38,346 bases of DNA from a virus: positions 1 to 38,346 of IMG/VR virus record IMGVR_UViG_3300022137_000001; one strand, given 5' to 3'. A model generated the notes under the pieces. The model ran no database searches, was not told the origin of the DNA, and saw nothing but the letters and a program-made list of their open reading frames with translations. The position numbers and the translations under genes were made by a program. Below, piece after piece: positions 1,213 through 33,752 of the stretch. Position 1 is the first letter of the stretch. The number at the start of each line of letters is the position of its first letter.

Positions 1213-1233
1213 TTCCACTTTTATATGTTGAAG
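1213..1233 (+). promoter_or_regulatory. Copy 1 of the conserved 21-nt motif TTCCACTTTTATATGTTGAAG (TATA-box type promoter candidate)
   Basis: Identical to 31791-31811, with one mismatch to 31341-31361. TTTTATAT sits at its core, followed by an A-rich tract and then a CACACA/TGTGTA initiator-like element. Confidence 0.5.
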
Positions 1234-11317: not shown

Positions 11318-13494
11318 AAAAATATACGGTCTATCCTGATGATACAAGAGGGATAGGTAATATAATGAATACAATAAGTAGTGTAGAAGAGATGAGTGGG
11401 AGTAATTGTACTCCTACTCTCACCGATACTACTTTAAATTATGATAATATTAATTTTCCAGTTTTTGAAATAAAATTAAAAGGTGAAACAGCATTACTCA
11501 CAATAGACAACACACAAGAAGAAGGTACTTATAAATGGAGTGTAATGCCTTCTACTGACATGGAACTGGTTGCAACATTAAAAGATACAAATAATGAGCC
11601 TATTACTGGTGTTGATGTCTATTTCTATGAAAATGATGTACTGATAGGTTCCAGTGAAACTGTTGAAGGTACATGTTCTTGCACTTACAATACAGATTTA
11701 AGTGGAGATCATACAATTGTTGTTAAAACCTATGATGAGTTGGAATATGATGCTACAAGTACCAGTGTTCATATTTTTGTTTATTATAATACCAGTCTAG
11801 GTTTAACGGTTCAACCAACGGTGATTGATTCAGCAGATACAATAAATATCTATGCCTCTCTTGTAAATGAATACACTTCAGAGGGGGTAGTTGGTGAAAC
11901 AGTTGATTTCTACAACAACGGTACATTATTGGGTTCAGGTATTACTGAAAACGATGGTGTAGCTACTTATACTGTCAATGCGCATGACTTGAAAACTGTT
12001 AGTGACAATGTTAATTTTCAAGCAAAATTTAGCAAGACGGCACAGTATCTTGCTTCAGAATCTAGTAGCTTTGAAACTACTATAAATCTCAGTAAACCTT
12101 CAATTATTTTACAGTACCCTATACAACAATATAAGCAAGGAGATACTGTCTCTTTAACTGTTGTTGTAACTGATAAGCATAGTGTAAGATTGGAAGGAAT
12201 ACAATTACAGATTAATATAAATGGTGTTGAATATACTGGTGTTACAGATGAAAGTGGAGAATATAGTATGGATTATGTTTTCCCTTCAACAGAAGACCTT
12301 ACAGTAAATATTTCAAATGTTGAAGATAATTTCTATCAATCAACAAGTATTACTAATACCGTGAAATGTGGTAAACTCACAACTTCCACCAATCTTTCCT
12401 TGAATGCTAGTAGTAATGAAATTAGTTTTGTTGAAGACTATTCACTTGTTGCTACAGTCATAGCAAGTGATGAATCAATAGTTACTGGTGATGTGGTATT
12501 CTATGAAGACGATAACATCATAGGTACTGTAGCACTAAGTAATGGTGTTGCCTCATTAACATATCAGAACAGTACTATTGGAGAACATACCTATTATGCC
12601 GTTTTTAACGAAACAGACAATTATCTAAGTTCTACTAGTAATGAATCATCTATTACTATAATTAAAGATACTCCTAAAATCTCCTTACTTACTGGAGATT
12701 TATACACTGGTTGGGAAACTGTATGTTTCTTAACTGATAGTGCAGGTACACCTCTTTCAAATAAAAATGTGGTAATTTCAGTTTCTTCAAATAATTCTTC
12801 ATTCTCAGATTATTCAAAAACAACCTCTGATGAAGGAAAAGCTAGTCTAAATATGAACTGGAATCCTTGTACCGCCTATGCAAAATACGTTTTCAATGGA
12901 GATTCACAGTACAATCCAGTTTCACTAAATTCAACATTCAAAATCAAAGACCCTCTTTCACAAACAAAATATCCCGGCACTATTACAAGTGTACCTGCAA
13001 CAGATAGTGATGGTAAAAGGGCATGGGACGATAAAACTTGTACAAGCGATTCTGATACACTTGTCTGTAATGATATTACAGGTAGCAACGGTTCCTATCC
13101 AACACCTGCAAAAATACAGAAAAATAACGGGTCTTGGGGATTCACAATACCCGAAGATGCTACTGTAACTAAAATTGTTGTCTCATGGAAAGCGAAAAAT
13201 GGTACTAAAAGTAGTGTGAGTGCTTGTATTAATATTCCAGCTGCAAACTTTACAATATATAATGTAGGTTCATCTAATCTAACAGGCAAGGGTGTTGTGG
13301 GAGGTAAAAATACTTATACAACAAGTACAATCACTTTAACAAGCCTAAATGGAGCTACACCTACACAAATCAACGATAAAATGAGTTTCACATTGTTCAC
13401 AGACAAAAAGAACACAACAGGAAATACCGGTTCTTTCTACATCATGGGCTTAAAAATGATTGTTTATTATATTCCTAAACAGGGAGATGTATAG
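11314..13494 (+). CDS. Virion adhesin-like protein with about five tandem Ig-like repeats plus a C-terminal beta-sandwich domain
   Basis: ATGA overlap with the tape measure gene. Repeats are visible by eye (DVYFYENDVLIGSS...; TVDFYNNGTLLGSG...DGVATYTV; DVVFYEDDNIIGTVALSNGVASLTY). Confidence 0.65.
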   Translation: MKKYTVYPDDTRGIGNIMNTISSVEEMSGSNCTPTLTDTTLNYDNINFPVFEIKLKGETALLTIDNTQEEGTYKWSVMPSTDMELVATLKDTNNEPITGVDVYFYENDVLIGSSETVEGTCSCTYNTDLSGDHTIVVKTYDELEYDATSTSVHIFVYYNTSLGLTVQPTVIDSADTINIYASLVNEYTSEGVVGETVDFYNNGTLLGSGITENDGVATYTVNAHDLKTVSDNVNFQAKFSKTAQYLASESSSFETTINLSKPSIILQYPIQQYKQGDTVSLTVVVTDKHSVRLEGIQLQININGVEYTGVTDESGEYSMDYVFPSTEDLTVNISNVEDNFYQSTSITNTVKCGKLTTSTNLSLNASSNEISFVEDYSLVATVIASDESIVTGDVVFYEDDNIIGTVALSNGVASLTYQNSTIGEHTYYAVFNETDNYLSSTSNESSITIIKDTPKISLLTGDLYTGWETVCFLTDSAGTPLSNKNVVISVSSNNSSFSDYSKTTSDEGKASLNMNWNPCTAYAKYVFNGDSQYNPVSLNSTFKIKDPLSQTKYPGTITSVPATDSDGKRAWDDKTCTSDSDTLVCNDITGSNGSYPTPAKIQKNNGSWGFTIPEDATVTKIVVSWKAKNGTKSSVSACINIPAANFTIYNVGSSNLTGKGVVGGKNTYTTSTITLTSLNGATPTQINDKMSFTLFTDKKNTTGNTGSFYIMGLKMIVYYIPKQGDV

Positions 13495-26695: not shown

Positions 26696-26768
26696 TTTTG
26701 TGGTGCTGTTTTCAATGGTATTGTTTTATTGCATTTAGAACGATAAAAAGAAAGGAAAAAATGATAAT

Positions 26769-27011
26769 ATGAAAATGGAACAAGTAAAATATATTTTAGA
26801 GGATGAAAAGTATAAAAATTATATCGATATTGATTTTTATGCAGCTAACGGAATGCCTCTTGGTGGTATAAATAGTGCTACTAATTGGTATATTTTTGAA
26901 AAAGATATGTTGATTGTTAGTACTGGAAGTTATATTTATTTTATAAATGTTGCTGATTTGAGTCATGTGATTATTAGGGGATTAGATGAGTCTGTGTTTA
27001 AGGAGGATTAA
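26769..27011 (+). CDS. Hypothetical 80-aa protein
   Basis: ORF in the colinear early block. Confidence 0.55.
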   Translation: MKMEQVKYILEDEKYKNYIDIDFYAANGMPLGGINSATNWYIFEKDMLIVSTGSYIYFINVADLSHVIIRGLDESVFKED

Positions 27012-27014
27012 GAT

Positions 27015-27257
27015 ATGGTATATGGTATAAGACCTTCACCTACAAGTTGTTGTTGGGATTGCAAGTATTATGATGTTGAAAGTAGATTTTGTAGTAATCT
27101 TGAAACAAAGACCTCTCGTTTTGGTCTTTGTCCTGATAAAACAGAGGTAATAGGGAATGAGGCAAATGAAAGGAAAAAAGTTATGGAACGGATTTATGGT
27201 GAGGGCTTTGATGAAAATGATGAGGAAATAAAAAAAAGGTATAAGGAAGTGAAATAA
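27015..27257 (+). CDS. 80-aa Cys-rich protein (CCWDC...C...C)
   Basis: Strong RBS aaggaggattaagatATG. Contains SCCWDCKYYDVESRFCSNLETKTSRFGLCPD. Confidence 0.6.
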   Translation: MVYGIRPSPTSCCWDCKYYDVESRFCSNLETKTSRFGLCPDKTEVIGNEANERKKVMERIYGEGFDENDEEIKKRYKEVK

Positions 27258-27272
27258 TAGAGGCTGTTAATA

Positions 27273-27500
27273 ATGACTGATGATTCCGAATTAAGACATG
27301 AATTCATTAAAGAGATGGAGAAAATCGGAAAGGAGAAACCATCCCATATAGATGATATTGATGACCTCTTTGAATTAGATAAGGAAATAGCGAAGTATGA
27401 GGAATATGTTAAGGAACATCCTGAAAGGTTAGGAGTTAAAGGAAACATAAAGACCCTAAAACATGTTCGTAAAGTGTTAGGTGAAAATAATGAGAAATAG
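27273..27500 (+). CDS. Hypothetical acidic 75-aa protein
   Basis: ORF in the colinear block, with tagaggctgttaataATG upstream. Confidence 0.55.
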   Translation: MTDDSELRHEFIKEMEKIGKEKPSHIDDIDDLFELDKEIAKYEEYVKEHPERLGVKGNIKTLKHVRKVLGENNEK

Positions 27501-27681
27501 AAGTATAAAAGATATATGTAATGATTTAAGTGAAGTGAATTCTGTTTTATCTAGATTAATAGAAACTTATGATGAGGAATCTATTGATTATGGGCTTAAA
27601 ACTAATATTATGGTAATGGAAAGCCAAAGAAGAGATTTACTTAAAGAATTAAAGTTTGTTATAAATCATAGATTTATTTGA
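27490..27681 (+). CDS. Hypothetical 63-aa protein
   Basis: RBS ttaggtgaaaataATG. Overlaps the upstream gene end by 11 nt. Confidence 0.5.
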   Translation: MRNRSIKDICNDLSEVNSVLSRLIETYDEESIDYGLKTNIMVMESQRRDLLKELKFVINHRFI

Positions 27682-27705
27682 AATAAATAAAATTTGATTG
27701 TTTAT

Positions 27706-28065
27706 ATGGAGTTTGGATTTATGATGTATGAAGAGAATATAAAAAAATTTGAAAATAACACTGATGATGAAGTGGTAGATTTTCTTGAAGCTATTTCTAA
27801 TATTGAAAAGAGATTATATCGTTCAAAGACTAGAATAGCTAGCCATAAAGCATATTATCTTTTAAACACCGATTGGAAACAATTGAACGAAGAAAGGGTT
27901 AAAGAAGATTTGCCCAAAATATCCAATCAGAATATGAAGGATGCTTATATTGCATCTATGATTGATGATCTTCAAAGCGAATATGATACCCTAAAAGTCA
28001 GGTATCATTATCTTCAGGAGTTATGGAAATATAGGTTAAGACATGGAAAAATAAGGGAAGAATAA
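27706..28065 (+). CDS. Hypothetical 119-aa protein
   Basis: First ATG in an ORF that the track starts at TTG 27694. Start uncertain (alternative 27721). Confidence 0.5.
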   Translation: MEFGFMMYEENIKKFENNTDDEVVDFLEAISNIEKRLYRSKTRIASHKAYYLLNTDWKQLNEERVKEDLPKISNQNMKDAYIASMIDDLQSEYDTLKVRYHYLQELWKYRLRHGKIREE

Positions 28066-28081
28066 GTGAGGTGTTATTTTT

Positions 28082-28255
28082 ATGAATCTTTTAAATCAGG
28101 AAATACAAGCTATTGAATATCAAATAGCTTATTATAAAAAGAAAAAACAGAAATATGAAAATTTAGGTGATCATGATACTGTTAGGTATTATGAAAGAAA
28201 ATTAGAAGAATTGGAAAAAGAACTTGAAATCCGTTTAAAAGAATCAAAAGACTAA
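28082..28255 (+). CDS. 57-aa coiled-coil protein
   Basis: RBS gtgaggtgttatttttATG. Not in the track (under 60 aa). Confidence 0.45.
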   Translation: MNLLNQEIQAIEYQIAYYKKKKQKYENLGDHDTVRYYERKLEELEKELEIRLKESKD

Positions 28256-28256
28256 T

Positions 28257-28415
28257 ATGACTGGTAAAGCATTAGATGTTGTGATTGAATTTTATACAAA
28301 TAAGATTCATGAACTTCAGGAAGAGAAGAAAATTGAGTTGAATGATAAGAGAATCTTTGTATTAGATAATCTTATCAATTTTTATAATCATAAACTTGAT
28401 GATCTAAAAAAGTAA
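28257..28415 (+). CDS. 52-aa protein
   Basis: ATG lies 1 nt after the previous stop. Not in the track. Confidence 0.4.
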   Translation: MTGKALDVVIEFYTNKIHELQEEKKIELNDKRIFVLDNLINFYNHKLDDLKK

Positions 28416-28437
28416 TTTATAATGGGTTTGGAGTTTT

Positions 28438-28764
28438 ATGTCATTAGTACAACTAACATTGGAAGGAAATATTCATTACAATGCAAAATGCAGTTATTGT
28501 GGTAAGCCTTTTGATAAAAGTAATTTACCGAATCGTGTAATGTATTGTAGTGAAAAATGTAGGATGAATGCACGATTAGAGCAAAAAGCAGCATATCAAC
28601 GGAAAAGGAGGAGATTAGCCCGTAATGGTGTGATTATAATTTCTGATAAAGAGAAAGGTTGCACAACATATAATAGTAATTTCCTTTCAGAACATAGACA
28701 TAAGGATTTTAGAAGGGAACAACGGGCAATTGAAAGGGAAATGAAAAGATTAAAGTTAAAATAA
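28438..28764 (+). CDS. Zinc-ribbon protein with a basic C-terminus (candidate regulator)
   Basis: KCSYCGKPFDKSNLPNRVMYCSEKCRMNA gives C-x2-C...C-x3-C, followed by KRRRLARN. It is the last early gene before a T-rich terminator. Confidence 0.6.
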   Translation: MSLVQLTLEGNIHYNAKCSYCGKPFDKSNLPNRVMYCSEKCRMNARLEQKAAYQRKRRRLARNGVIIISDKEKGCTTYNSNFLSEHRHKDFRREQRAIEREMKRLKLK

Positions 28765-28816: not shown

Positions 28817-28903
28817 GTATATATTTCTTCTTAAAATAATTAACTTAATTAATTGTTTTTTACAAATATTAAACTAATTTTTTTTCAAGTTGAGGTTTTT
28901 TTT

Positions 28904-30802
28904 ATGGTAAATGAGAAGATTACAGATATGTTTGTTGAAGGGTTGTTAAAAGAGGCAAATATTGATTTTATGCCTAATGGGAGCAGTATTAAAGAAATTG
29001 AAGATGCATTGAAAACGGCATCTAAAAGAGGAACGAATAAGGTAGGATTTCCAGAGTTTGTAGGAAAATCAAAAGATTTTATATTAGTTATTGAAGATAA
29101 AGCAGAAACCAACAAACAAGCATTATATTGTGAAAAAAATTCAAATCGGCTAGATTTAAGGGTAAATGCACTAACTGATTATGCAGAGAATGGTGCGTTA
29201 CATTATGCACAACATATAATAAACAATACAAATTTTAAAAAAATTTTCGCCTTTGGATGTAGTGGAGATGAGAAACACCATATTATCAGACCAATATATG
29301 TAGATGAAAACGATTACACATTATTAGAGGAAGTTGAAAACTTTGAAAACTTTAACGAGGAAAATATAGAACAATATTATAAAGAAATTGTACTTAATGA
29401 AACTCCTAATGAAGTTATAGAAATAGAAGAAGTATTAGAAAAATCAAAAGAACTAAACGAACTGTTAACATCACGAGGTAGCTTAACAGATACAGAAAAA
29501 CCATTAGTAGTATCAGCAATATTATTGGCATTAAATGAAAATGCAGACATTGACCAATTAATGAAAGCAGATAAAATAAGTAATGATGGAAAGATAATAA
29601 ATGATGCAGTTTGTTGCAACTTGCAAAGAATAAAAGTAGAACGAAAAGTAGAAGCTATAATGCATCAATTTAATTTTATAAAAGATAGACCCAATCTTAA
29701 TGAAGTGGATGAAAATTTAGGTAAAACTCCATTAAAGTATTTTACAGAATATATTAAAGATAAAATATTTCCTGCAATCTCAACGACACATGAAGATATA
29801 TTAGGTTTCTTTTATGGTGAATTTATTAAATATAGTGGGGGTGATGGTCAATCATTAGGGATTGTACTAACACCCACACACATAACGGAATTATTCTGCG
29901 ATTTATTAGAAATTACTCCGAAAGACAAGGTATTAGACCCTTGTGCAGGCACTGGGAGTTTTTTAGTATCAGCAATGAACAGAATGATAAAGTCAGCTAA
30001 AACAAAAGAAGAGAAGAAATATATAAAGGAAAATAATTTGCATGGGATTGAATTAAAAGAAAATATGTTTTCAATTGCTACAACAAATATGATTTTGCGG
30101 GGGGATGGAAAAACAAACTTAATTTGTGCCGACTTCTTAAAACAAGATCCGCAAGAACTCAGAAAAAATAAATATACTGTAGGAATGATGAATCCCCCAT
30201 ACTCTTTAAGAAGGAATCAGGAAACAGCTTATTTGTCAGAAATACATTTTGTCAAACATTTATTAGATTCTTTAGATGATAATGCAAGATGTGGAGTTAT
30301 TGTTCCGCAATCCGCAATGGTTGGAAAAAATAAAGAAGATAAAAACATTAAAAAAGAAATACTTAAGAATCACACTTTGGAAGGAGTTATAAGTCTTAAT
30401 GGTGATACATCTTTTTATAGGGTAGGAATAATACCTTGCATTGCAATATTTACAGCCAACAGACCACACCCACAAGAAAAACGATGTAAATTTATAAACT
30501 TTGAAGATGACGGTTATAAATTGTGCAAACATATAGGGATTGTTAAAACTGAACGAGCTATTGAACGAAGAAAACATTTATTAAAATGTTGGAGAGATCA
30601 AATTGATGCACCAAGTAAATTTATGGTAAAATCAACTATAAAACCAACTGATGAATGGTTACATTCTTTTTATTATTTTAATGATGAACTACCTAATAAA
30701 GAAGAATTTATTAGAACAATGAGCAATTATTTAACATTCGAATTTGATTTAGTTATGCAAAATAAAGATTATTTACTAATGGATGGTAATAATTATGACT
30801 AA
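28904..30802 (+). CDS. BcgI-A-like fusion: N-terminal PD-(D/E)xK nuclease-like domain plus gamma-class N6-adenine DNA methyltransferase
   Basis: FPEF-x13-LVIEDK (29051-29101). Motif I VLDPCAGTGSFL (from 29936). Motif IV NPPY (30191-30202). First ATG with a tgaggt RBS is at 28904. Confidence 0.75.
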   Translation: MVNEKITDMFVEGLLKEANIDFMPNGSSIKEIEDALKTASKRGTNKVGFPEFVGKSKDFILVIEDKAETNKQALYCEKNSNRLDLRVNALTDYAENGALHYAQHIINNTNFKKIFAFGCSGDEKHHIIRPIYVDENDYTLLEEVENFENFNEENIEQYYKEIVLNETPNEVIEIEEVLEKSKELNELLTSRGSLTDTEKPLVVSAILLALNENADIDQLMKADKISNDGKIINDAVCCNLQRIKVERKVEAIMHQFNFIKDRPNLNEVDENLGKTPLKYFTEYIKDKIFPAISTTHEDILGFFYGEFIKYSGGDGQSLGIVLTPTHITELFCDLLEITPKDKVLDPCAGTGSFLVSAMNRMIKSAKTKEEKKYIKENNLHGIELKENMFSIATTNMILRGDGKTNLICADFLKQDPQELRKNKYTVGMMNPPYSLRRNQETAYLSEIHFVKHLLDSLDDNARCGVIVPQSAMVGKNKEDKNIKKEILKNHTLEGVISLNGDTSFYRVGIIPCIAIFTANRPHPQEKRCKFINFEDDGYKLCKHIGIVKTERAIERRKHLLKCWRDQIDAPSKFMVKSTIKPTDEWLHSFYYFNDELPNKEEFIRTMSNYLTFEFDLVMQNKDYLLMDGNNYD

Positions 30803-31319
30803 TATAGATTTGTCTGTTTTTAATATTGATGATTTGTTTAATTTGTCAACAGGGGCAAATATTCCCAATTCTAAATTAAAGGAGGGGAAAATTCCCAGAA
30901 TTTCTGCTAAAGGATTAAACAATGGTGTCCAACAATATACAAGTGTTGTTAAAGATTCTAATTTTAGAACTAGCAATAATTTTATTTCCATATCCTTTTT
31001 AGGAGATTCATTTTACCACCCATACTTTGCAAGTGTAGATATGAAAATCCATATATTAAAACTAAAGAACATGGAATTAAATAAATATTTGGGATTATAT
31101 TTAACAACTATTCTAAACAATCAAATGAACAAGTATTGTTATGGAAATCAGTTATCTTTAGCAACTCTAAAGAAAGGAAGAATATTGCTCCCCATTAATT
31201 GTGAAAATGAACCTGATTTTGAATATATGGAAAATATTATGAGAAACATAGAAAAAGAACAAATTAAGAAATATATTGGCTATTTAGGAAAAATTAAAAA
31301 TAATGTTAAGTATAAATAA
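30795..31319 (+). CDS. Half-size HsdS/BcgI-B-like specificity subunit (single target-recognition domain)
   Basis: IDDLFNLSTGANIPNSKLKEGKIPRISAKGLNNGVQQY resembles the start of a type I S-subunit TRD. The gene overlaps the methyltransferase stop. Confidence 0.6.
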   Translation: MTNIDLSVFNIDDLFNLSTGANIPNSKLKEGKIPRISAKGLNNGVQQYTSVVKDSNFRTSNNFISISFLGDSFYHPYFASVDMKIHILKLKNMELNKYLGLYLTTILNNQMNKYCYGNQLSLATLKKGRILLPINCENEPDFEYMENIMRNIEKEQIKKYIGYLGKIKNNVKYK

Positions 31320-31340
31320 AGCATATTTCTTTTTCTATTT

Positions 31341-31361
31341 TTCCACTTTTATATATTGAAG
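31341..31361 (+). promoter_or_regulatory. Copy 2 of the conserved motif (TTCCACTTTTATATATTGAAG)
   Basis: 20/21 identity to copies 1 and 3. Followed by an A-rich tract and TGTGTA at +38. Confidence 0.5.
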
Positions 31362-31790
31362 ATGAAGAAAAAAAAGTTTGTGTAAGGACTATTCATTTTT
31401 TGATAAGTAACCATTTATCACCTAAAAGAGGAAAAAAATTTTTTCCTATATACTTTTGTTTTTTCTTTACACAAATTACATTTTTTTATCTTTGTTTTTC
31501 ACAACCGTTTTCAAGATGGATAAGTATTAAATTATTAAAAATAGATCATGAATCGTATTATCATTTTTTGTTTAAAATTTCTCCTTAAATTAAAAGAGTT
31601 ATAAAATATATAAAGCTGCTTGGCATTATCTTGTCATATAGAAACGTCGATGTTTAACTGTTCCTTTTAACACGCAATCATGCAATTTAATTCCTTTTTT
31701 ACTTATCCACCTATTTTTTTTAAATTTCTTTTTAAATAATAATAATTATACTTTTTTTTAGCTATTCTTTTAATTTTGCAGTCTTTAATG

Positions 31791-31811
31791 TTCCACTTTT
31801 ATATGTTGAAG
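31791..31811 (+). promoter_or_regulatory. Copy 3 of the conserved motif (TTCCACTTTTATATGTTGAAG)
   Basis: Identical to copy 1. The shared upstream block TAGCTATT lies 32-33 nt upstream in copies 1 and 3. TGTGTA at +36. Confidence 0.5.
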
Positions 31812-32149
31812 GAAAAAGAAAAAATATGTGTATAATTTTTTTTCTTAAAAGGACCTTTTCTTATAAACCACAATAAAAAAAGACAATGAAAATTAAATAT
31901 TTTCTAAAAAATTCTATAATAAATTATTGAAAATAAAAATTTGTAATTAATATTTTGTAAAAATTTTTAAGTATATTTTTATAATACTTTTACATAAAAA
32001 AATCAAGAAATAAAAAGACTTAAATAAATCCGTTAAAACAATGCAGAGAATGTACGTGTTTTAACATGTTTATAAGAGATAAGGGACATTTTTTATTCTT
32101 CTTTTTTATAATATACATTCCTTTTTCCTTTACAATATATAAAAGTTGA

Positions 32150-32344
32150 TTGGGGTTGTTAAAAATATTCTTAAAAAAACAATTAAAAAGAATAGACTTC
32201 ATAGAAAAATGCCCCAACTGCGAAAATAGCAATATAGTCTATGATGAACAACATGACGAAATACTATGTCTAGACTGTGGAGCTATTATACTACAAAACT
32301 ATACATTCTACTACAAGGACAGAAAAGAGAAGAAGAAAAAATAA
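32150..32344 (+). CDS. Stand-alone TFB/TFIIB-type zinc-ribbon protein (ribbon only, no cyclin core)
   Basis: KCPNCENSNIVYDEQHDEILCLDCGAIILQN (Cys pairs at 32210-32221 and 32267-32278), then a Lys-rich tail. Only TTG in-frame starts (32150 or 32156). An oligo-T terminator follows. Confidence 0.65.
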   Translation: MGLLKIFLKKQLKRIDFIEKCPNCENSNIVYDEQHDEILCLDCGAIILQNYTFYYKDRKEKKKK

Positions 32345-32345
32345 C

Positions 32346-32387
32346 TTTTTTTTTACATTTTACCTTTATTTTTATTTTTATTTTTTT
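32346..32387 (+). terminator. Oligo-T cluster after the zinc-ribbon gene
   Basis: A T9 run begins 2 nt after the stop, followed by further T5-T7 runs. Confidence 0.4.
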
Positions 32388-32512
32388 GGAAGGGTATGGG
32401 AAAATACTAAATTGCCTCCGAAAGTTAAAAAACCACTAATTTTAATGATGTTCTATATTCTTCCAAAAATTTTATTTTATCTAAACTAATCTTTATGGGA
32501 GGTGAAATAATT

Positions 32513-32731
32513 ATGGATCAAGCAACAATAAGTTCCTATGTAATACTCATATTATCACCAATACTCGGCTACTTTGCAGTATCATCAGAAACAGCAAACG
32601 CAATCTACGGAATAATAACAGCAATAATAATGCTAACTTTAGCTATTTGGAACGAAAAACATAACAGTACAGTTATATCTGGAACTGAAAAAGAAAACGA
32701 AGACACTGATGTAATTGTAGGAGAAGAATAG
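32513..32731 (+). CDS. Holin-like protein with two TM helices
   Basis: RBS gggaggtgaaataattATG. TM1 ISSYVILILSPILGYFAV, TM2 ANAIYGIITAIIMLTLAIW, then a WNEKHNST charged tail. Resembles LL-H/SPP1-type holins. Confidence 0.55.
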   Translation: MDQATISSYVILILSPILGYFAVSSETANAIYGIITAIIMLTLAIWNEKHNSTVISGTEKENEDTDVIVGEE

Positions 32732-32732
32732 A

Positions 32733-32984
32733 ATGCAAGACGAAAAATGTATACATGAAGCTGAAATAGCTGAAATCCGACAACAAATCAAAACATTATA
32801 CACACAGGATGCACGTATAGAGAAAACCCTAGACAAAATAGATAACACACAAGAAATGCTCCTACAACAAGTAACCACACTCAACAGTACAATAAACACT
32901 CTCAAATGGAGTGTAGCTATCTTCATAACTGCAACAGGAGGAATATTCATATTCCTCATAACAGAACTAATCAAAATAATATAA
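32733..32984 (+). CDS. XhlA-like protein (coiled coil plus C-terminal TM)
   Basis: RBS aggagaagaatagaATG. HEAEIAEIRQQIKTLYTQDARIEKTLDKI...LKWSVAIFITATGGIFIFLITELIKII mirrors the architecture of PBSX XhlA. Confidence 0.5.
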   Translation: MQDEKCIHEAEIAEIRQQIKTLYTQDARIEKTLDKIDNTQEMLLQQVTTLNSTINTLKWSVAIFITATGGIFIFLITELIKII

Positions 32985-33007: not shown

Positions 33008-33637
33008 ATGACTAAAGAATGGGAAAGACAAAAAGGAGAATCTGGCAAAAGCTTTGCATGGTTCAAAGTATACAGAAATCTAGGACCATTAAGGTCTTTT
33101 CCAAAGGTCATAGATTACATTGAAAATGAGAAACTTAAAGAAAAAGCAAATGAAAACAAAGTAAAAAATCCAATTGTTATACCAGTACCTACATTAAGTC
33201 AACTAACTAATCAAAGTTATAAGTGGCAATGGGTTAAAAGATGTACTGCATGGGATAATTATCAAGACCAACAACAACAGTTACAATATAATGAAGCCTA
33301 CAATCAAACAAAAGACCAACTTATCGAGATGGGTAATGACATCATGAAAACTACCGAAAATATTCTCGATGAATTAAATTATGATGATGAAAGTAGACCT
33401 ACAAGCAAAGCACATGCAGTTAAAAGTCTTGCAGATAGCTTCGAAAAAACCACCAAAACAGTAAGACTATTGTATGGTAAATCTACTGAAATCAAAGACG
33501 GTAAAACAGACCTTAAAGCAGATGTTGAAGCCAAAGTAGAAAAAGACACCAAACTTGAAACATCACAGAATATAATCATGGATCCAGAATTTGTGAAATT
33601 ATCAAAAGGATTACTTGAAAAATATTCTGAACAATAA
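33008..33637 (+). CDS. terS: Terminase small subunit
   Basis: GESGKSFAWFKVYRNLGPLRSFPKV...YKWQWVKRCTAWDNY fits a common TerS/HTH pattern. The gene is directly upstream of TerL. Confidence 0.6.
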   Translation: MTKEWERQKGESGKSFAWFKVYRNLGPLRSFPKVIDYIENEKLKEKANENKVKNPIVIPVPTLSQLTNQSYKWQWVKRCTAWDNYQDQQQQLQYNEAYNQTKDQLIEMGNDIMKTTENILDELNYDDESRPTSKAHAVKSLADSFEKTTKTVRLLYGKSTEIKDGKTDLKADVEAKVEKDTKLETSQNIIMDPEFVKLSKGLLEKYSEQ

Positions 33638-33752
33638 CACAACCTTCACACCACGATTCTGAACATGAAAAATTAAAACCTATGGATTTTCCAATATCAT
33701 ACTCTTAATTGTATAATTTTTTCTTATTTTTTTTAAACAAAATAGCTATTCT

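What the first reader, a model, noticed from the sequence alone, without database searches (positions are those of the whole stretch)
32150..32344. Ribbon-only TFB/TFIIB mimic encoded just upstream of the late genes
The ORF core KCPNCENSNIVYDEQHDEILCLDCGAIILQN reproduces the N-terminal zinc ribbon of archaeal TFB and eukaryotic TFIIB (CP-x-C...D-x3-[GD]E-x-x-C-x-x-CG-x-[VI]). The protein ends about 25 residues later in a Lys-rich tail, with no B-reader/linker or cyclin-fold core.

The TFB ribbon is the part that docks on the RNA polymerase dock domain. A ribbon-only protein is therefore predicted to compete with host TFB for RNAP, or to tether RNAP for a viral factor. Either would be a host-transcription takeover or switch device.

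The gene has its own oligo-T terminator and sits after a long noncoding leader that contains the conserved viral promoter motif. It has no ATG or GTG start; only TTG 32150 or 32156 is in frame. Virus-encoded RNAP-binding inhibitors are known in archaea (ATV ORF145/RIP), but they are unrelated to this fold.
Basis: partly seen in the sequence, partly recalled or inferred. Interest (0 to 1): 0.8.

Follow-up and report, generated by a model that had tools for sequence, protein, structure and literature searches.

The report
Stand-alone TFB zinc ribbon in methanogen virus
A tailed virus of the gut methanogen Methanobrevibacter carries a real, conserved 64-residue gene that keeps only the RNA-polymerase-docking zinc ribbon of the host initiation factor TFB, and it always sits between the replication and packaging genes, which marks it as a candidate late-gene switch whose action on the polymerase is still untested.

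Summary
ORF 32150..32344 (+) is a real gene: dN/dS over the ribbon and tail is 0.05 against an 80%-identical ortholog. It encodes a C4 zinc ribbon of the TFB/TFIIB type. Pfam PF08271 scores 35.8 bits (cutoff 29). The family profile scores 48 bits against the P. furiosus TFB ribbon and 24 bits against eS27. hhalign against cellular TFBs gives 96% probability, and the top fold match is 1PFT.

There is no B-reader loop, B-linker or cyclin core, and the window encodes no TFB core or TBP. The TTG start, the T9 after the stop codon, the 830-bp untranslated leader and the repeated promoter-like motif are all confirmed.

New here: the gene belongs to a family of small proteins with one copy per genome. 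In about nine lineages of methanogen tailed viruses it lies just upstream of the terminase genes, even where TerL is only 24-32% identical or not detectably related. Some members keep a B-reader remnant or carry an extra tail module.

The proposed mechanism (docking on host RNA polymerase to control late transcription) is inferred and untested. Known precedents are Sulfolobus TFB3 (a truncated TFB) and full-length TFBs on mobile elements. NCBI already names the ortholog "TFIIB-type zinc ribbon-containing protein". Verdict: a new variant of a known kind, of moderate to high interest.

The parts
32150..32344 (+). CDS of the 64-aa stand-alone TFB-type zinc-ribbon protein (TTG start, TAA stop)
   Evidence: dN/dS is 0.048 over codons 20-64. 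The start codon is supported by L001, L008 and L017.
32207..32296 (+). Zinc-ribbon core, residues 20-49 (Cys21, Cys24, Cys40, Cys43; YD-x2-HDE; CG-x-I)
   Evidence: Pfam PF08271 covers residues 20-51. AF2 predicts three strands, E29-32, E37-40 and E46-49, with pLDDT 86-89. The top Foldseek hit is 1PFT. The family profile scores 48 bits against 1PFT.
32150..32206 (+). N-terminal extension (MGLLKIFLKKQLKRIDFIE). Conserved at protein level in L001, L008 and the MSTV1 upstream copy, but with unusually low synonymous divergence from L001.
   Evidence: AF2 pLDDT is below 50 for residues 1-10.
32300..32341 (+). Post-ribbon predicted helix plus Lys-rich tail (NYTFYYKDRKEKKKK). It is colinear with the start of the TFB B-reader region, and the GPEWRAF motif is absent.
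   Evidence: AF2 predicts helix H51-63.
32346..32354 (+). T9 run two bases after the stop codon, a signal resembling an archaeal oligo-T terminator. A second run, T7, lies at 32381-32387.
   Evidence: T>=8 runs on the + strand lie almost only at operon boundaries in this window. Function as a terminator is inferred.
31320..32149 (+). Untranslated leader, 20% G+C, 86% identical to L001 although about 49% of synonymous sites in the ORF differ. It has 13.3 T>=6 runs per kb, against 0.35-0.7 per kb in coding regions.
   Evidence: No Rfam match.
31341..31361 (+). Copy 1 of the 21-nt promoter-like motif TTCCACTTTTATATATTGAAG (TATA box with both flanks conserved)
   Evidence: The motif is conserved in L001, MSTV1, L008, L009 and L015.
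31791..31811 (+). Copy 2 of the motif, about 340 nt upstream of the ribbon start codon
1213..1233 (+). Copy 3 of the motif, at the head of the capsid-morphogenesis genes
   Evidence: The same position is occupied in L001 (16376), MSTV1 (18239), L015 (11039) and L013 (6580).
32012..32093 (+). Conserved leader element: a hairpin (stem 32032-32039 / 32058-32065) with an invariant loop AATGCAGAGAATGTA and an invariant 3' flank ending in T6
   Evidence: Fold z-score is -2.07. There are two compensatory pairs in L015, from three sequences only.
32513..32731 (+). First gene downstream: a 72-aa membrane protein with a strong GGAGGTGA ribosome-binding site. It travels with the ribbon gene as a cassette.
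   Evidence: It is 87.5% identical to L001, 59% to L008 and 51% to L015.
32733..32984 (+). 83-aa coiled-coil protein with a C-terminal membrane segment (PHROG 1193, 'hemolysin', XhlA-like). Possibly lysis-related.
   Evidence: It is 91.6% identical to L001.
33008..33637 (+). Terminase small subunit
   Evidence: phrog_6299, E 5e-34
33753..35219 (+). Terminase large subunit
   Evidence: phrog_38, E 3e-65
28438..28764 (+). ORF26-type CxxC...CxxxC zinc-finger protein. Its C-terminal ~30-aa module is fused to the TFB-like ribbon in relatives P0035 and P0017, so it is a possible functional partner or analogue.
   Evidence: BLASTP E 1e-7 and 1e-6. The MSTV1 homolog ORF26 is expressed in lysogens (PMC11375127).

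Best explanation
The ORF encodes a small virus-specific derivative of the N-terminus of the archaeal initiation factor TFB. It comprises a C4 zinc ribbon, a short N-terminal extension and one short basic helix, and it has no DNA-binding core.

Shown:
- It is a real gene under purifying selection.
- It is TFB-type by profile and by predicted fold.
- It belongs to a family of small proteins with one copy per genome, located at the junction between the replication/early module and the terminase/late module of Methanobacteriales tailed viruses.
- It lies downstream of the same 21-nt promoter-like motif that also heads the capsid genes.

Inferred:
- Like the TFB ribbon, it docks on the dock/RNA-exit region of the host RNA polymerase.
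- From there it modulates transcription of the late (lysis, packaging, morphogenesis) genes. A positive switch is the most likely form, either helping polymerase at the motif promoters or helping it read through the oligo-T-rich leader and operon boundaries.
- Because it has no DNA-binding domain, promoter specificity would have to come from a partner or from the promoter-bound TBP-TFB complex, as proposed for Sulfolobus TFB3.
For: Domain identity:
- Pfam PF08271 scores 35.8 bits against a cutoff of 29.
- 22 of 23 family members hit PF08271.
- The family profile scores 48 bits (E 7e-12) against the P. furiosus TFB ribbon 1PFT, while eS27 scores 24 bits.
- hhalign against 14 cellular TFBs gives 96.1% probability, E 2.9e-9, colinear from the ribbon into the B-reader region.
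- In the AF2 model the ribbon has pLDDT 86-89. The top Foldseek hit is 1PFT, followed by the Brf1, Brf2 and TFIIB ribbons inside initiation complexes at 1.3-2.0 A over about 32 residues.
- The residues R41 and E43, invariant in cellular TFBs, correspond to (H/R)35 and E37 in the viral family.

Real gene: dN/dS is 0.048.

Position:
- The gene lies 1.3-3.5 kb upstream of TerL in the window, L001, MSTV1, L003/4, L005/6, L008, L010, L011 and L015.
- The window TerL is only 24-32% identical to that of L003, L008, L011 and L015, with no detectable match in L001 or MSTV1.
- This is the position held by late-gene regulators in bacterial phages (lambda Q; RinA/ArpU in Gram-positive siphoviruses). That comparison rests on established knowledge and was not tested here.

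Other points:
- The motif heads both the ribbon unit and the capsid unit. In L015 a copy also sits 17 nt after the ribbon stop codon.
- The TFB ribbon is the part of TFB that binds the RNAP dock (PMC7289017).
- A truncated TFB can activate in trans (TFB3; PMC6101594).
- The MSTV1 ribbon gene (ORF28) is not among the four loci reported as expressed in lysogens (PMC11375127), which fits lytic-phase expression.
Against: - There is no direct evidence of RNAP binding or of any effect on transcription.
- The TFB3 ribbon alone (N-Zn, 49 aa) could not activate.
- Methanobrevibacter TFB has a canonical four-Cys ribbon (P0104), so the TFB3 rationale of supplying an intact ribbon does not apply.
- TFB-like ribbons occur in tandem arrays and in membrane-anchored proteins (P0010, P0024, P0026), so the module is not restricted to initiation factors.
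- The gene lies downstream of, not upstream of, the motif shared with the capsid operon. It may therefore be co-expressed with the late genes rather than ahead of them.
- The MSTV1 version is only 42 aa and sits in a locally duplicated region.
- Foldseek E-values are weak (0.1 or higher) because the domain is tiny.
- The single sequence also passes the S27e Pfam cutoff (29.9 bits against 24.5).
Confidence: 0.45

Rival explanations
1. Competitive inhibitor (host shut-off). The free ribbon occupies the RNAP dock, prevents host TFB from recruiting polymerase, and globally represses TFB-dependent initiation. This would be analogous in outcome to ATV RIP.
For: The domain assignment is the same. The protein has no DNA-binding or core domain, so the simplest biochemical consequence of dock binding is competition. 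The TFB ribbon is what recruits RNAP (PMC7289017). A viral RNAP inhibitor has a precedent (PMC5123050, PMC9501531).
Against: The virus encodes no RNA polymerase, TFB core or TBP, so its own late genes depend on host TFB. A global competitor made at the head of the late module would therefore hurt the virus. The virus is temperate with low-level induction (PMC11375127). The conserved non-ATG start without a Shine-Dalgarno sequence argues for low abundance, which is a poor fit for a stoichiometric competitor.
Confidence: 0.15
2. A generic small zinc-ribbon adaptor unrelated to RNA polymerase. It could be a nucleic-acid- or protein-binding factor acting in DNA packaging or pac recognition, in restriction alleviation or anti-defence, or as a regulator working through another partner. 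On this reading the TFB resemblance reflects only shared ancestry of the fold.
For: - TFB-like ribbons appear in non-TFB architectures.
- There are weak hits to Lar restriction alleviation (19.7 bits for the window protein; 4 of 23 members at E<=0.001) and to the PADLOC candidate PDC-S64 (25 bits).
- In the window and L008 the gene follows an N6-methyltransferase/S-subunit pair.
- It lies next to TerS and to a constrained untranslated region that could contain a pac site.
- Relatives fuse the ribbon to a tail module shared with another zinc-finger protein.
Against: The Lar score is below its cutoff of 28.6. The methyltransferase is absent upstream in L001, MSTV1, L003, L005, L007, L010 and L011, yet the ribbon keeps its place. 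Homology to TFB is specific: twice the bit score of any other ribbon family, and colinear beyond the ribbon into the B-reader region.
Confidence: 0.3
3. A virus-encoded mimic of ribosomal protein eS27 (S27e), which in archaea is also a roughly 60-residue C4 ribbon protein. It would act on the ribosome.
For: Pfam S27e scores 29.9 bits, above its cutoff of 24.5. NCBIfam S27e scores 29 bits (cutoff 70). 14 of 23 family members hit S27e.
Against: The family profile scores 48 bits for the TFB ribbon and 24 bits for the best eS27. The top fold match is TFB. hhalign against TFB gives 96% probability and extends past the ribbon. The YD-x2-(H/R)DE and CG-x-V-L-x-(Q/E)-(N/G) motifs match TFB.
Confidence: 0.03
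4. The ORF is not translated. It would be a chance reading frame in an AT-rich intergenic region lacking an ATG and a ribosome-binding site.
For: The only in-frame start is TTG, with no Shine-Dalgarno sequence upstream. The first 19 codons show 1 synonymous and 4 nonsynonymous changes.
Against: dN/dS is 0.048 over codons 20-64. Four invariant Cys are kept across proteins that are 28-49% identical. There is one copy per genome at a fixed position. Relatives use ATG starts (L015, MSTV1).
Confidence: 0.02

Closest known systems
Archaeal TFB / eukaryotic TFIIB N-terminal zinc ribbon (Pfam PF08271; structure 1PFT)
   Same: It has the same C4 ribbon with the same spacing, the same (Y)D-x2-(R/H)-x-E and CG-x-V motifs and the same three-stranded fold. 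It is colinear with TFB from the ribbon into the start of the B-reader region.
   Different: It lacks the B-reader loop (GPEWRAF), the B-linker and both cyclin repeats, so it cannot bind TBP, the BRE or promoter DNA. It is 64 aa, against about 300 aa for TFB. It is only about 35% identical to a Methanobrevibacter TFB ribbon, so it is not a recent capture.
Sulfolobus TFB3 (truncated TFB paralogue, DNA-damage-inducible activator)
   Same: It is a TFB derivative that keeps the four-Cys ribbon, lacks the DNA-binding core and acts (TFB3) or would act (here) in trans alongside the canonical TFB (PMC6101594, PMC7289017).
   Different: TFB3 is cellular and about three times longer. It needs a C-terminal coiled coil, and its ribbon alone is inactive. 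It co-occurs with a TFB1 whose own ribbon is degenerate. The viral protein has only a predicted helix of about 13 residues, and its host TFB ribbon is canonical.
TFB homologues encoded by mobile elements (Italian rudiviruses; thaumarchaeal integrative-conjugative elements)
   Same: In both cases a virus or mobile element carries its own derivative of the host initiation factor (PMC9501531, PMC6563490).
   Different: The sources describe those as TFB/TFIIB homologues (arCOG01981), not as ribbon-only proteins. Their domain content was not checked here. No function is established for them either.
ATV ORF145/RIP
   Same: It is the only characterised archaeal-virus protein that binds host RNAP directly, and part of it topologically mimics the TFIIB B-linker (PMC5123050, PMC9501531).
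   Different: RIP has an unrelated fold and ancestry (a paralogue of a virion protein). It binds inside the DNA channel and is a global repressor. The protein here is a true homologue of the TFB ribbon.
Bacterial phage late-gene regulators located just upstream of the lysis/terminase genes (lambda Q; RinA/ArpU/Ltr family; P2 Ogr zinc-finger activator)
   Same: They occupy the same genomic position, at the early/late junction immediately before the holin-like and terminase genes. They are small and contact RNA polymerase rather than acting as classical repressors. Several are derived from, or mimic, the host initiation factor. This comparison rests on established knowledge, and only the gene position was tested here.
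   Different: There is no sequence or fold relationship. Those proteins act on bacterial sigma-dependent polymerase. Function here is untested.
Poxvirus/NCLDV A2L-type zinc ribbon (late transcription factor VLTF-3)
   Same: It is a viral late transcription factor carrying a TFIIB-related zinc ribbon. There is a weak Pfam hit to PF08792 (17.1 bits).
   Different: The score is below the cutoff of 22.9. Those viruses encode their own polymerase, and the proteins are larger.

Membership tests
TFIIB/TFB-type zinc ribbon domain (Pfam PF08271) | Profile score at or above the curated gathering threshold | tested here: met
   The score is 35.8 bits against a cutoff of 29, E 5.6e-9, covering residues 20-51. 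22 of 23 family members match.
TFIIB/TFB-type zinc ribbon domain (Pfam PF08271) | Four Cys ligands arranged CxxC-x(15-17)-CxxC | tested here: met
   The motif reads C21-P-N-C24 ... C40-L-D-C43. All four Cys are invariant across 25 family members.
TFIIB/TFB-type zinc ribbon domain (Pfam PF08271) | Three-stranded antiparallel ribbon fold closest to TFB/TFIIB ribbons | tested here: met
   AF2 predicts strands 29-32, 37-40 and 46-49 with pLDDT 86-89. The top Foldseek hit is 1PFT (prob 0.99), and the TFIIB, Brf1 and Brf2 ribbons fit at 1.3-2.0 A. This is a prediction, and E-values are weak for so small a domain.
TFIIB/TFB-type zinc ribbon domain (Pfam PF08271) | Discrimination from other C4 ribbons (eS27, TFIIS, Rpo12, Lar) | tested here: met
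   The family profile scores 48.1 bits against 1PFT, 24.2 bits against the best eS27 and 23 bits against Brf2. hhalign against TFB gives 96.1% probability.
TFIIB/TFB-type zinc ribbon domain (Pfam PF08271) | Zinc binding | not testable with these tools
   This needs metal analysis of purified protein.
Bona fide general initiation factor TFB/TFIIB | B-reader loop and B-linker (GPEWRAF ... HDKGLST) | tested here: not met
   The protein ends 21 residues after Cys43. Alignment with Methanobrevibacter and Methanobacterium TFBs shows no GPEWRAF motif.
Bona fide general initiation factor TFB/TFIIB | Two cyclin-fold repeats (PF00382) that bind TBP, BRE and DNA | tested here: not met
   There is no PF00382 hit in the ORF or in the window ORFs that were scanned, which include all of the larger early-region ORFs. 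Several small early ORFs were not scanned.
Bona fide general initiation factor TFB/TFIIB | Binding of the ribbon to the RNAP dock domain | not testable with these tools
   Only single-chain prediction was available. This needs a co-fold or a pull-down.
TFB3-type truncated TFB activators | Intact four-Cys ribbon without a cyclin core | tested here: met
TFB3-type truncated TFB activators | C-terminal coiled-coil motif essential for activation | tested here: not met
   Only a predicted helix of about 13 residues (51-63) plus a Lys tail is present. The TFB3 ribbon alone is inactive (PMC6101594).
TFB3-type truncated TFB activators | Co-occurrence with a host TFB1 that has a degenerate (two-Cys) ribbon | tested here: not met
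   The Methanobrevibacter sp. TFB P0104 has CPEC...CARC, that is four Cys.
Ribosomal protein eS27 (PF01667) | Profile score above the cutoff and best match among ribbon families | tested here: inconclusive
   The single sequence scores 29.9 bits against a cutoff of 24.5. NCBIfam S27e scores 29 bits against a cutoff of 70. The family profile prefers TFB by 24 bits.
Lar restriction-alleviation protein (PF14354) | Profile score above the cutoff | tested here: not met
   The score is 19.7 bits against a cutoff of 28.6.
ATV RIP/ORF145 RNAP inhibitors | Homology to the RIP/P131 fold | not tested
   No RIP entry appeared among the Foldseek PDB hits listed (top 50 of 270). No direct comparison was made.

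The most novel reading that the evidence does not exclude
The ribbon protein is the archaeal-virus counterpart of lambda Q. It would load onto host RNA polymerase at the dock/RNA-exit site, the place vacated by the TFB ribbon at promoter escape. It would then travel with the elongating enzyme and make it resistant to oligo-T termination. The polymerase could then read through the terminator-dense leader, the T9 after the ribbon gene and the T-runs between late operons, giving a self-reinforcing late switch. The conserved 21-nt promoter motif and the conserved leader hairpin would be the loading or sensing elements.
Probability: 0.1. Interest if true: 0.85.

Novelty: new variant of a known kind. 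Interest (0 to 1): 0.58.

Why it matters
Archaeal viruses encode no RNA polymerase, and almost nothing is known about how they time late gene expression. Only one viral protein, ATV RIP, is known to touch the host polymerase.

A conserved viral family reduced to the polymerase-docking piece of TFB, fixed at the early/late junction of viruses that infect the dominant human-gut and rumen methanogens, gives a concrete candidate for that switch that can be tested experimentally. It would also be a minimal natural probe of the TFB-ribbon/dock interaction.

If it proves to be an activator or antiterminator, it would show that archaeal viruses, like bacterial phages with sigma-like factors, build late regulators from fragments of the host initiation factor. 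If it proves to be an inhibitor, it would be a genetically encoded tool for shutting down transcription in methanogens.

Tried and rejected
- Single-sequence search of IMG/VR found no relatives.
- A profile-based locus search failed because no stretch of the alignment was conserved enough.
- Exact-word scans for the ribbon DNA and the leader blocks found nothing in viral contigs, genome contigs or metagenome contigs, apart from L015. Leader covariation therefore rests on three sequences.
- Rfam gave no match in 31000-32800.
- The conserved block 31600-31700 shows no fold signal, z = +0.69.
- The sigma-70 promoter and hairpin-terminator scan is uninformative for an archaeal virus: 11 sites against 10.3 expected, and no terminators.
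- PHROGs holds no annotated family for the ribbon; only weak hits appear.
- I first suspected that the 'zinc finger ORF26' reported as expressed in MSTV1 lysogens was this gene. It is a different protein, with window homolog 28438..28764.
- A link to the upstream methyltransferase (Lar-like restriction alleviation) was rejected as the main reading, because most relatives lack the methyltransferase.
- Start at the second TTG (32156) was rejected, because L017 has CTG there and L008 has no equivalent.
- The supplementary tables of the MSTV1 paper are not held, so per-gene RPKM for ORF28 could not be read.
- My hand alignment contained one-base typos in two loop regions. The stem arms were checked against the verbatim sequences.
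Full report
**What the window is**

The window is a complete, circularly permuted genome of a tailed virus or provirus of Methanobrevibacter, related to M. smithii tailed virus 1 (MSTV1, PP537965). The gene order is as follows.

| Window coordinates | Content |
|---|---|
| 1-20213 | head and tail genes |
| 20523-21674 | integrase |
| 23062-28764 | early genes, including an ERF recombinase |
| 28853-31319 | N6-methyltransferase plus a type I S-like subunit |
| 31320-32149 | 830-bp untranslated stretch (the leader) |
| 32150-32344 | the ORF in question |
| 32513-32984 | two small membrane proteins |
| 33008 onward | TerS, TerL and portal |

An IMG/VR contig (L013) is nearly identical across the packaging genes.

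**Checking the observation**

Its core is C21-x2-C24-x15-C40-x2-C43.

It is a real gene. Against the 80%-identical ortholog in an M. boviskoreani provirus (L001), codons 20-64 differ at 15 synonymous and 9 nonsynonymous positions, giving dN/dS 0.048. Scanning every reading frame of the window and 12 related loci with a family HMM finds one copy per genome, plus a degenerate duplicate in MSTV1.

The other sequence claims also hold:
- The only in-frame starts are TTG 32150 and TTG 32156.
- A T9 run begins two bases after the stop codon.
- T>=8 runs on the sense strand lie almost only at operon boundaries in this window.
- The leader carries two exact copies of a motif that also occurs at 1213.

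**Start codon**

No Shine-Dalgarno sequence precedes either TTG. By contrast, the next gene has GGAGGTGA seven bases before its ATG.

The comparative data favour 32150:

| Locus | Start region |
|---|---|
| Window | TTG-GGG-TTG |
| L001 | TTG-GGG |
| L017 (near-identical metagenomic contig) | TTG-GTG-CTG, which abolishes the second TTG |
| L008 (more distant) | GTG-GGA |

The L008 N-terminus MGFTIFDKNKLQKTDLFIEC parallels MGLLKIFLKKQLKRIDFIEKC in the window. L015 and MSTV1 use ATG and have shorter N-termini. A non-ATG start without a ribosome-binding site, conserved in several lineages, suggests deliberately weak translation.

One oddity remains. The first 19 codons show only 1 synonymous and 4 nonsynonymous changes relative to L001 (dS 0.10, against 1.7 for the rest of the ORF). 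This points either to nucleotide-level constraint on the 5' end or to a recombination boundary.

**What the protein is**

Three lines of evidence agree that this is a TFB-type ribbon.

- *Single-sequence profiles.* The sequence passes the Pfam TFIIB zinc-ribbon model at 35.8 bits (cutoff 29). It also passes the eS27 model at 29.9 bits (cutoff 24.5). NCBIfam is ambiguous at the single-sequence level.
- *Family profile.* An exhaustive search of 1.84 billion representatives and a profile search found a family of small proteins of 42-136 aa. Their shared motif is C-x2-C-x3-(I/L)-x-YD-x2-(H/R)DE-(I/V)-x-C-x2-CG-x-(V/I)-L-x-Q-(N/G). The family profile scores 48 bits (E 7e-12) against the solved P. 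furiosus TFB ribbon 1PFT, 24 bits against the best eS27 and 23 bits against Brf2. Of 23 members, 22 hit PF08271.
- *Profile-profile comparison and fold.* hhalign against 14 cellular TFBs gives 96.1% probability (E 2.9e-9). It aligns the family with TFB columns 13-67, that is the ribbon and onward into the B-reader region (VLRQG..DY..P...F against VIDE..ID.GPEWRAF). The AF2 model has three strands and a C-terminal helix, with pLDDT 86-89 over the ribbon. Its top PDB match is 1PFT, followed by the Brf1, Brf2 and TFIIB ribbons inside pre-initiation complexes at 1.3-2.0 A over about 32 residues. E-values are weak, as expected for a 35-residue domain.

A genuine Methanobrevibacter TFB (P0104) reads [43 protein letters not shown]. 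The viral ribbon is about 35% identical to it, so it is an old derivative and not a recent capture. R41 and E43, which are invariant in cellular TFBs, correspond to (H/R)35 and E37 in the viral family.

The window protein stops 21 residues after the last Cys. It has no GPEWRAF motif, no B-linker and no cyclin repeat. No TFB core or TBP was found in the window ORFs scanned.

'Ribbon-only' is therefore nearly right. The protein also has a short N-terminal extension and a conserved post-ribbon segment, LQN(Y/F)(T/S)xY, which is predicted to be helical and ends in a Lys-rich tail.

**Genomic context in relatives**

In every contig long enough to judge, the ribbon gene lies 1.3-3.5 kb upstream of TerL, at the end of the replication/early module. 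It is usually flanked by unusually long intergenic DNA. This holds for L001, MSTV1 (annotated only as a 42-aa hypothetical protein), L003/L004, L005/L006, L008/L009, L010, L011 and L015. L007 also carries the gene just before a run of large genes that was not examined further.

These viruses are deeply divergent. The window TerL is 24-32% identical to that of L003, L008, L011 and L015, and has no detectable match in L001 or MSTV1. The ribbons, in contrast, remain 40-48% identical.

The ribbon gene, the leader and the two small membrane proteins form a cassette that is 82-92% identical between the window and L001, while TerS and portal are about 25% identical. The gene therefore marks a module junction that persists when the packaging genes are exchanged.

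**The promoter-like motif**

The motif TTCCAC(T/C)TTTATAT(A/G)TTGAAG is a TATA box with both flanks conserved. It is shared by the window, L001, MSTV1, L008/L009, L013 and L015, and the copies in these genomes are on the sense strand of the late genes (two short IMG/VR fragments also carry it). It occurs in the leader before the ribbon gene and again at the head of the capsid genes. In L015 a further copy sits 17 nt after the ribbon stop codon and another lies before the packaging genes.

**Mechanism**

Steps that are shown:
- The gene is real.
- It is homologous to the TFB N-terminus.
- It has a fixed position at the early/late junction.
- It shares a promoter type with the capsid operon.

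Steps that follow from established knowledge:
- The TFB ribbon is the element that binds the RNAP dock and recruits polymerase (PMC7289017).
- Archaeal viruses depend on host RNAP, TBP and TFB (PMC9501531).

Steps that are inferred:
- The viral protein docks on the same site.
- It tunes late transcription.

I favour a positive role (activator or read-through factor) over global inhibition, for four reasons:
1. The virus needs TFB-dependent transcription for its own late genes.
2. The gene sits where bacterial phages keep their late activators and antiterminators.
3. Weak-translation signals argue against a stoichiometric competitor.
4. A truncated TFB that activates in trans exists (Sulfolobus TFB3, PMC6101594).

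Against this reading:
- The TFB3 ribbon alone is inactive.
- The host TFB ribbon is canonical.
- The protein has no DNA-binding part.
- TFB-like ribbons also occur in tandem-array and membrane-anchored proteins.

Some relatives (P0035, P0017) fuse the ribbon to a 30-residue tail. That tail is otherwise found on a different viral zinc-finger protein (window 28438..28764; MSTV1 ORF26, expressed in lysogens). This shows that the ribbon can serve as a carrier for another module and points to a possible partner.

**Comparison with what is known**

The domain is a member of the TFIIB zinc-ribbon family; every testable criterion was met. The protein is not a TFB, because the B-linker and cyclin core were tested for and are absent. 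It is not a TFB3-type factor either, because it lacks the coiled coil and the host has no degenerate TFB1.

NCBI already labels the L001 ortholog 'TFIIB-type zinc ribbon-containing protein'. The MSTV1 paper does not discuss the gene or any promoter. Full-text searches found no paper describing ribbon-only TFB derivatives in archaeal viruses. They did find TFB homologues in rudiviruses and in thaumarchaeal conjugative elements.

I therefore rate the finding as a new variant of a known kind.

**Verdict**

The mechanistic reading is plausible but untested, and the 'competitor/takeover' version is the less likely one.

| Claim | Confidence |
|---|---|
| Real TFB-derived ribbon gene | about 0.95 |
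| Acts through RNAP to regulate late transcription | about 0.45 |
| Acts as a TFB competitor | about 0.15 |
| Ribbon used for something unrelated to RNAP | about 0.3 |

Interest is 0.58.

Noticed in passing
window 1213-1233, 31341-31361, 31791-31811 (+); L001 9238, 9642, 16376; L002 (MSTV1) 11269, 18239; L008 2623, 2989, 4749; L015 3433, 3894, 4592, 5560, 11039: A 21-nt element, TTCCAC(T/C)TTTATAT(A/G)TTGAAG, is conserved almost exactly across viruses whose proteins are only 25-45% identical. In these genomes it is on the sense strand of the late genes, at the head of the ribbon unit and of the capsid unit. Conservation on both TATA flanks suggests more than a generic TBP site. The MSTV1 paper does not mention promoters.
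   Followed up: partly
window 31320-32149, especially 31608-31684 and 32012-32093: The 830-bp untranslated leader is 86% identical to L001, although about 49% of synonymous sites in the adjacent ORF differ. All its conserved blocks recur in the more distant L015. A hairpin (32032-32039 / 32058-32065) with an invariant loop shows two compensatory base-pair changes in L015, from three sequences only. Sense-strand T>=6 runs are 20-40 times denser here than in coding DNA. There is no Rfam match. It could be a leader RNA or attenuator, a non-coding RNA or a packaging site.
   Followed up: partly
window 28438-28764; L002 10587-10895; proteins P0035, P0017 (L010 2124-2432): A C-terminal module of about 30 residues, (G/S)xFLSxHxxxDFxxE...E(M/L)KR(L/I)G, is shared between the ORF26-type CxxC...CxxxC zinc-finger protein and some members of the TFB-ribbon family (BLASTP E 1e-7 and 1e-6). 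Two different zinc modules therefore carry the same tail. MSTV1 ORF26 is one of the few genes expressed in lysogens.
   Followed up: partly
L002 (MSTV1) 11377-11722 and about 12095-12170: MSTV1 has a tandem duplication of the 5' end of the ribbon gene: the 33-nt word ATGAAACATGCAGAAATAGAGTGTCCTGTTTGT occurs at 11406 and 11594. This creates an unannotated 83-aa ORF with a good ribbosome-binding site and a TTG start, overlapping the annotated 42-aa ribbon ORF. The following gap in MSTV1 contains a stretch that reads like a tRNA by eye (not scanned with ARAGORN), whereas the window has no tRNA.
   Followed up: partly
window 32150-32984 versus 33008-36793; L001, L017: The genome is sharply mosaic. 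The ribbon and two membrane proteins are 82-92% identical to L001, but TerS and portal are about 25% identical and TerL has no detectable match. Contig L017 is identical to the window from about 31660 onward but resembles L001 upstream of that point, which places a recombination joint inside the leader.
   Followed up: partly
window 32150-32206: The first 19 codons of the ribbon ORF have very low synonymous divergence from L001 (1 synonymous and 4 nonsynonymous changes; dS 0.10 against 1.7 for the rest). This could reflect a nucleotide-level constraint such as a translation-initiation or RNA element, or a recombination boundary.
   Followed up: no
window 32433-32455: Between the ribbon terminator and the next gene there is a block conserved in L001, AAACCAC-TAATTTTAAT-GATG. 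It resembles a degenerate copy of the 21-nt motif (CCAC followed by a TATA-like run). It lies about 60 nt upstream of the ATG at 32513 and could be the promoter of the late unit.
   Followed up: no
proteins P0010, P0024, P0026: TFB-like ribbons occur as tandem arrays in larger proteins. One has a C-terminal membrane segment, and two are very acidic and halophile-like. The module is therefore reused outside initiation factors.
   Followed up: no
window 32150-32344 (protein residues 10-48): The ribbon region hits the PADLOC candidate defence family PDC-S64 (25 bits, E 2e-6), matching profile positions 253-291 of 339. That protein probably contains a similar ribbon.
   Followed up: no
L010 1317-3130: In this relative the ribbon gene is flanked on both sides by divergently oriented pairs consisting of a MarR/wHTH regulator and an 88-aa protein, an apparent local duplication of a regulatory cassette around the ribbon gene.
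   Followed up: no
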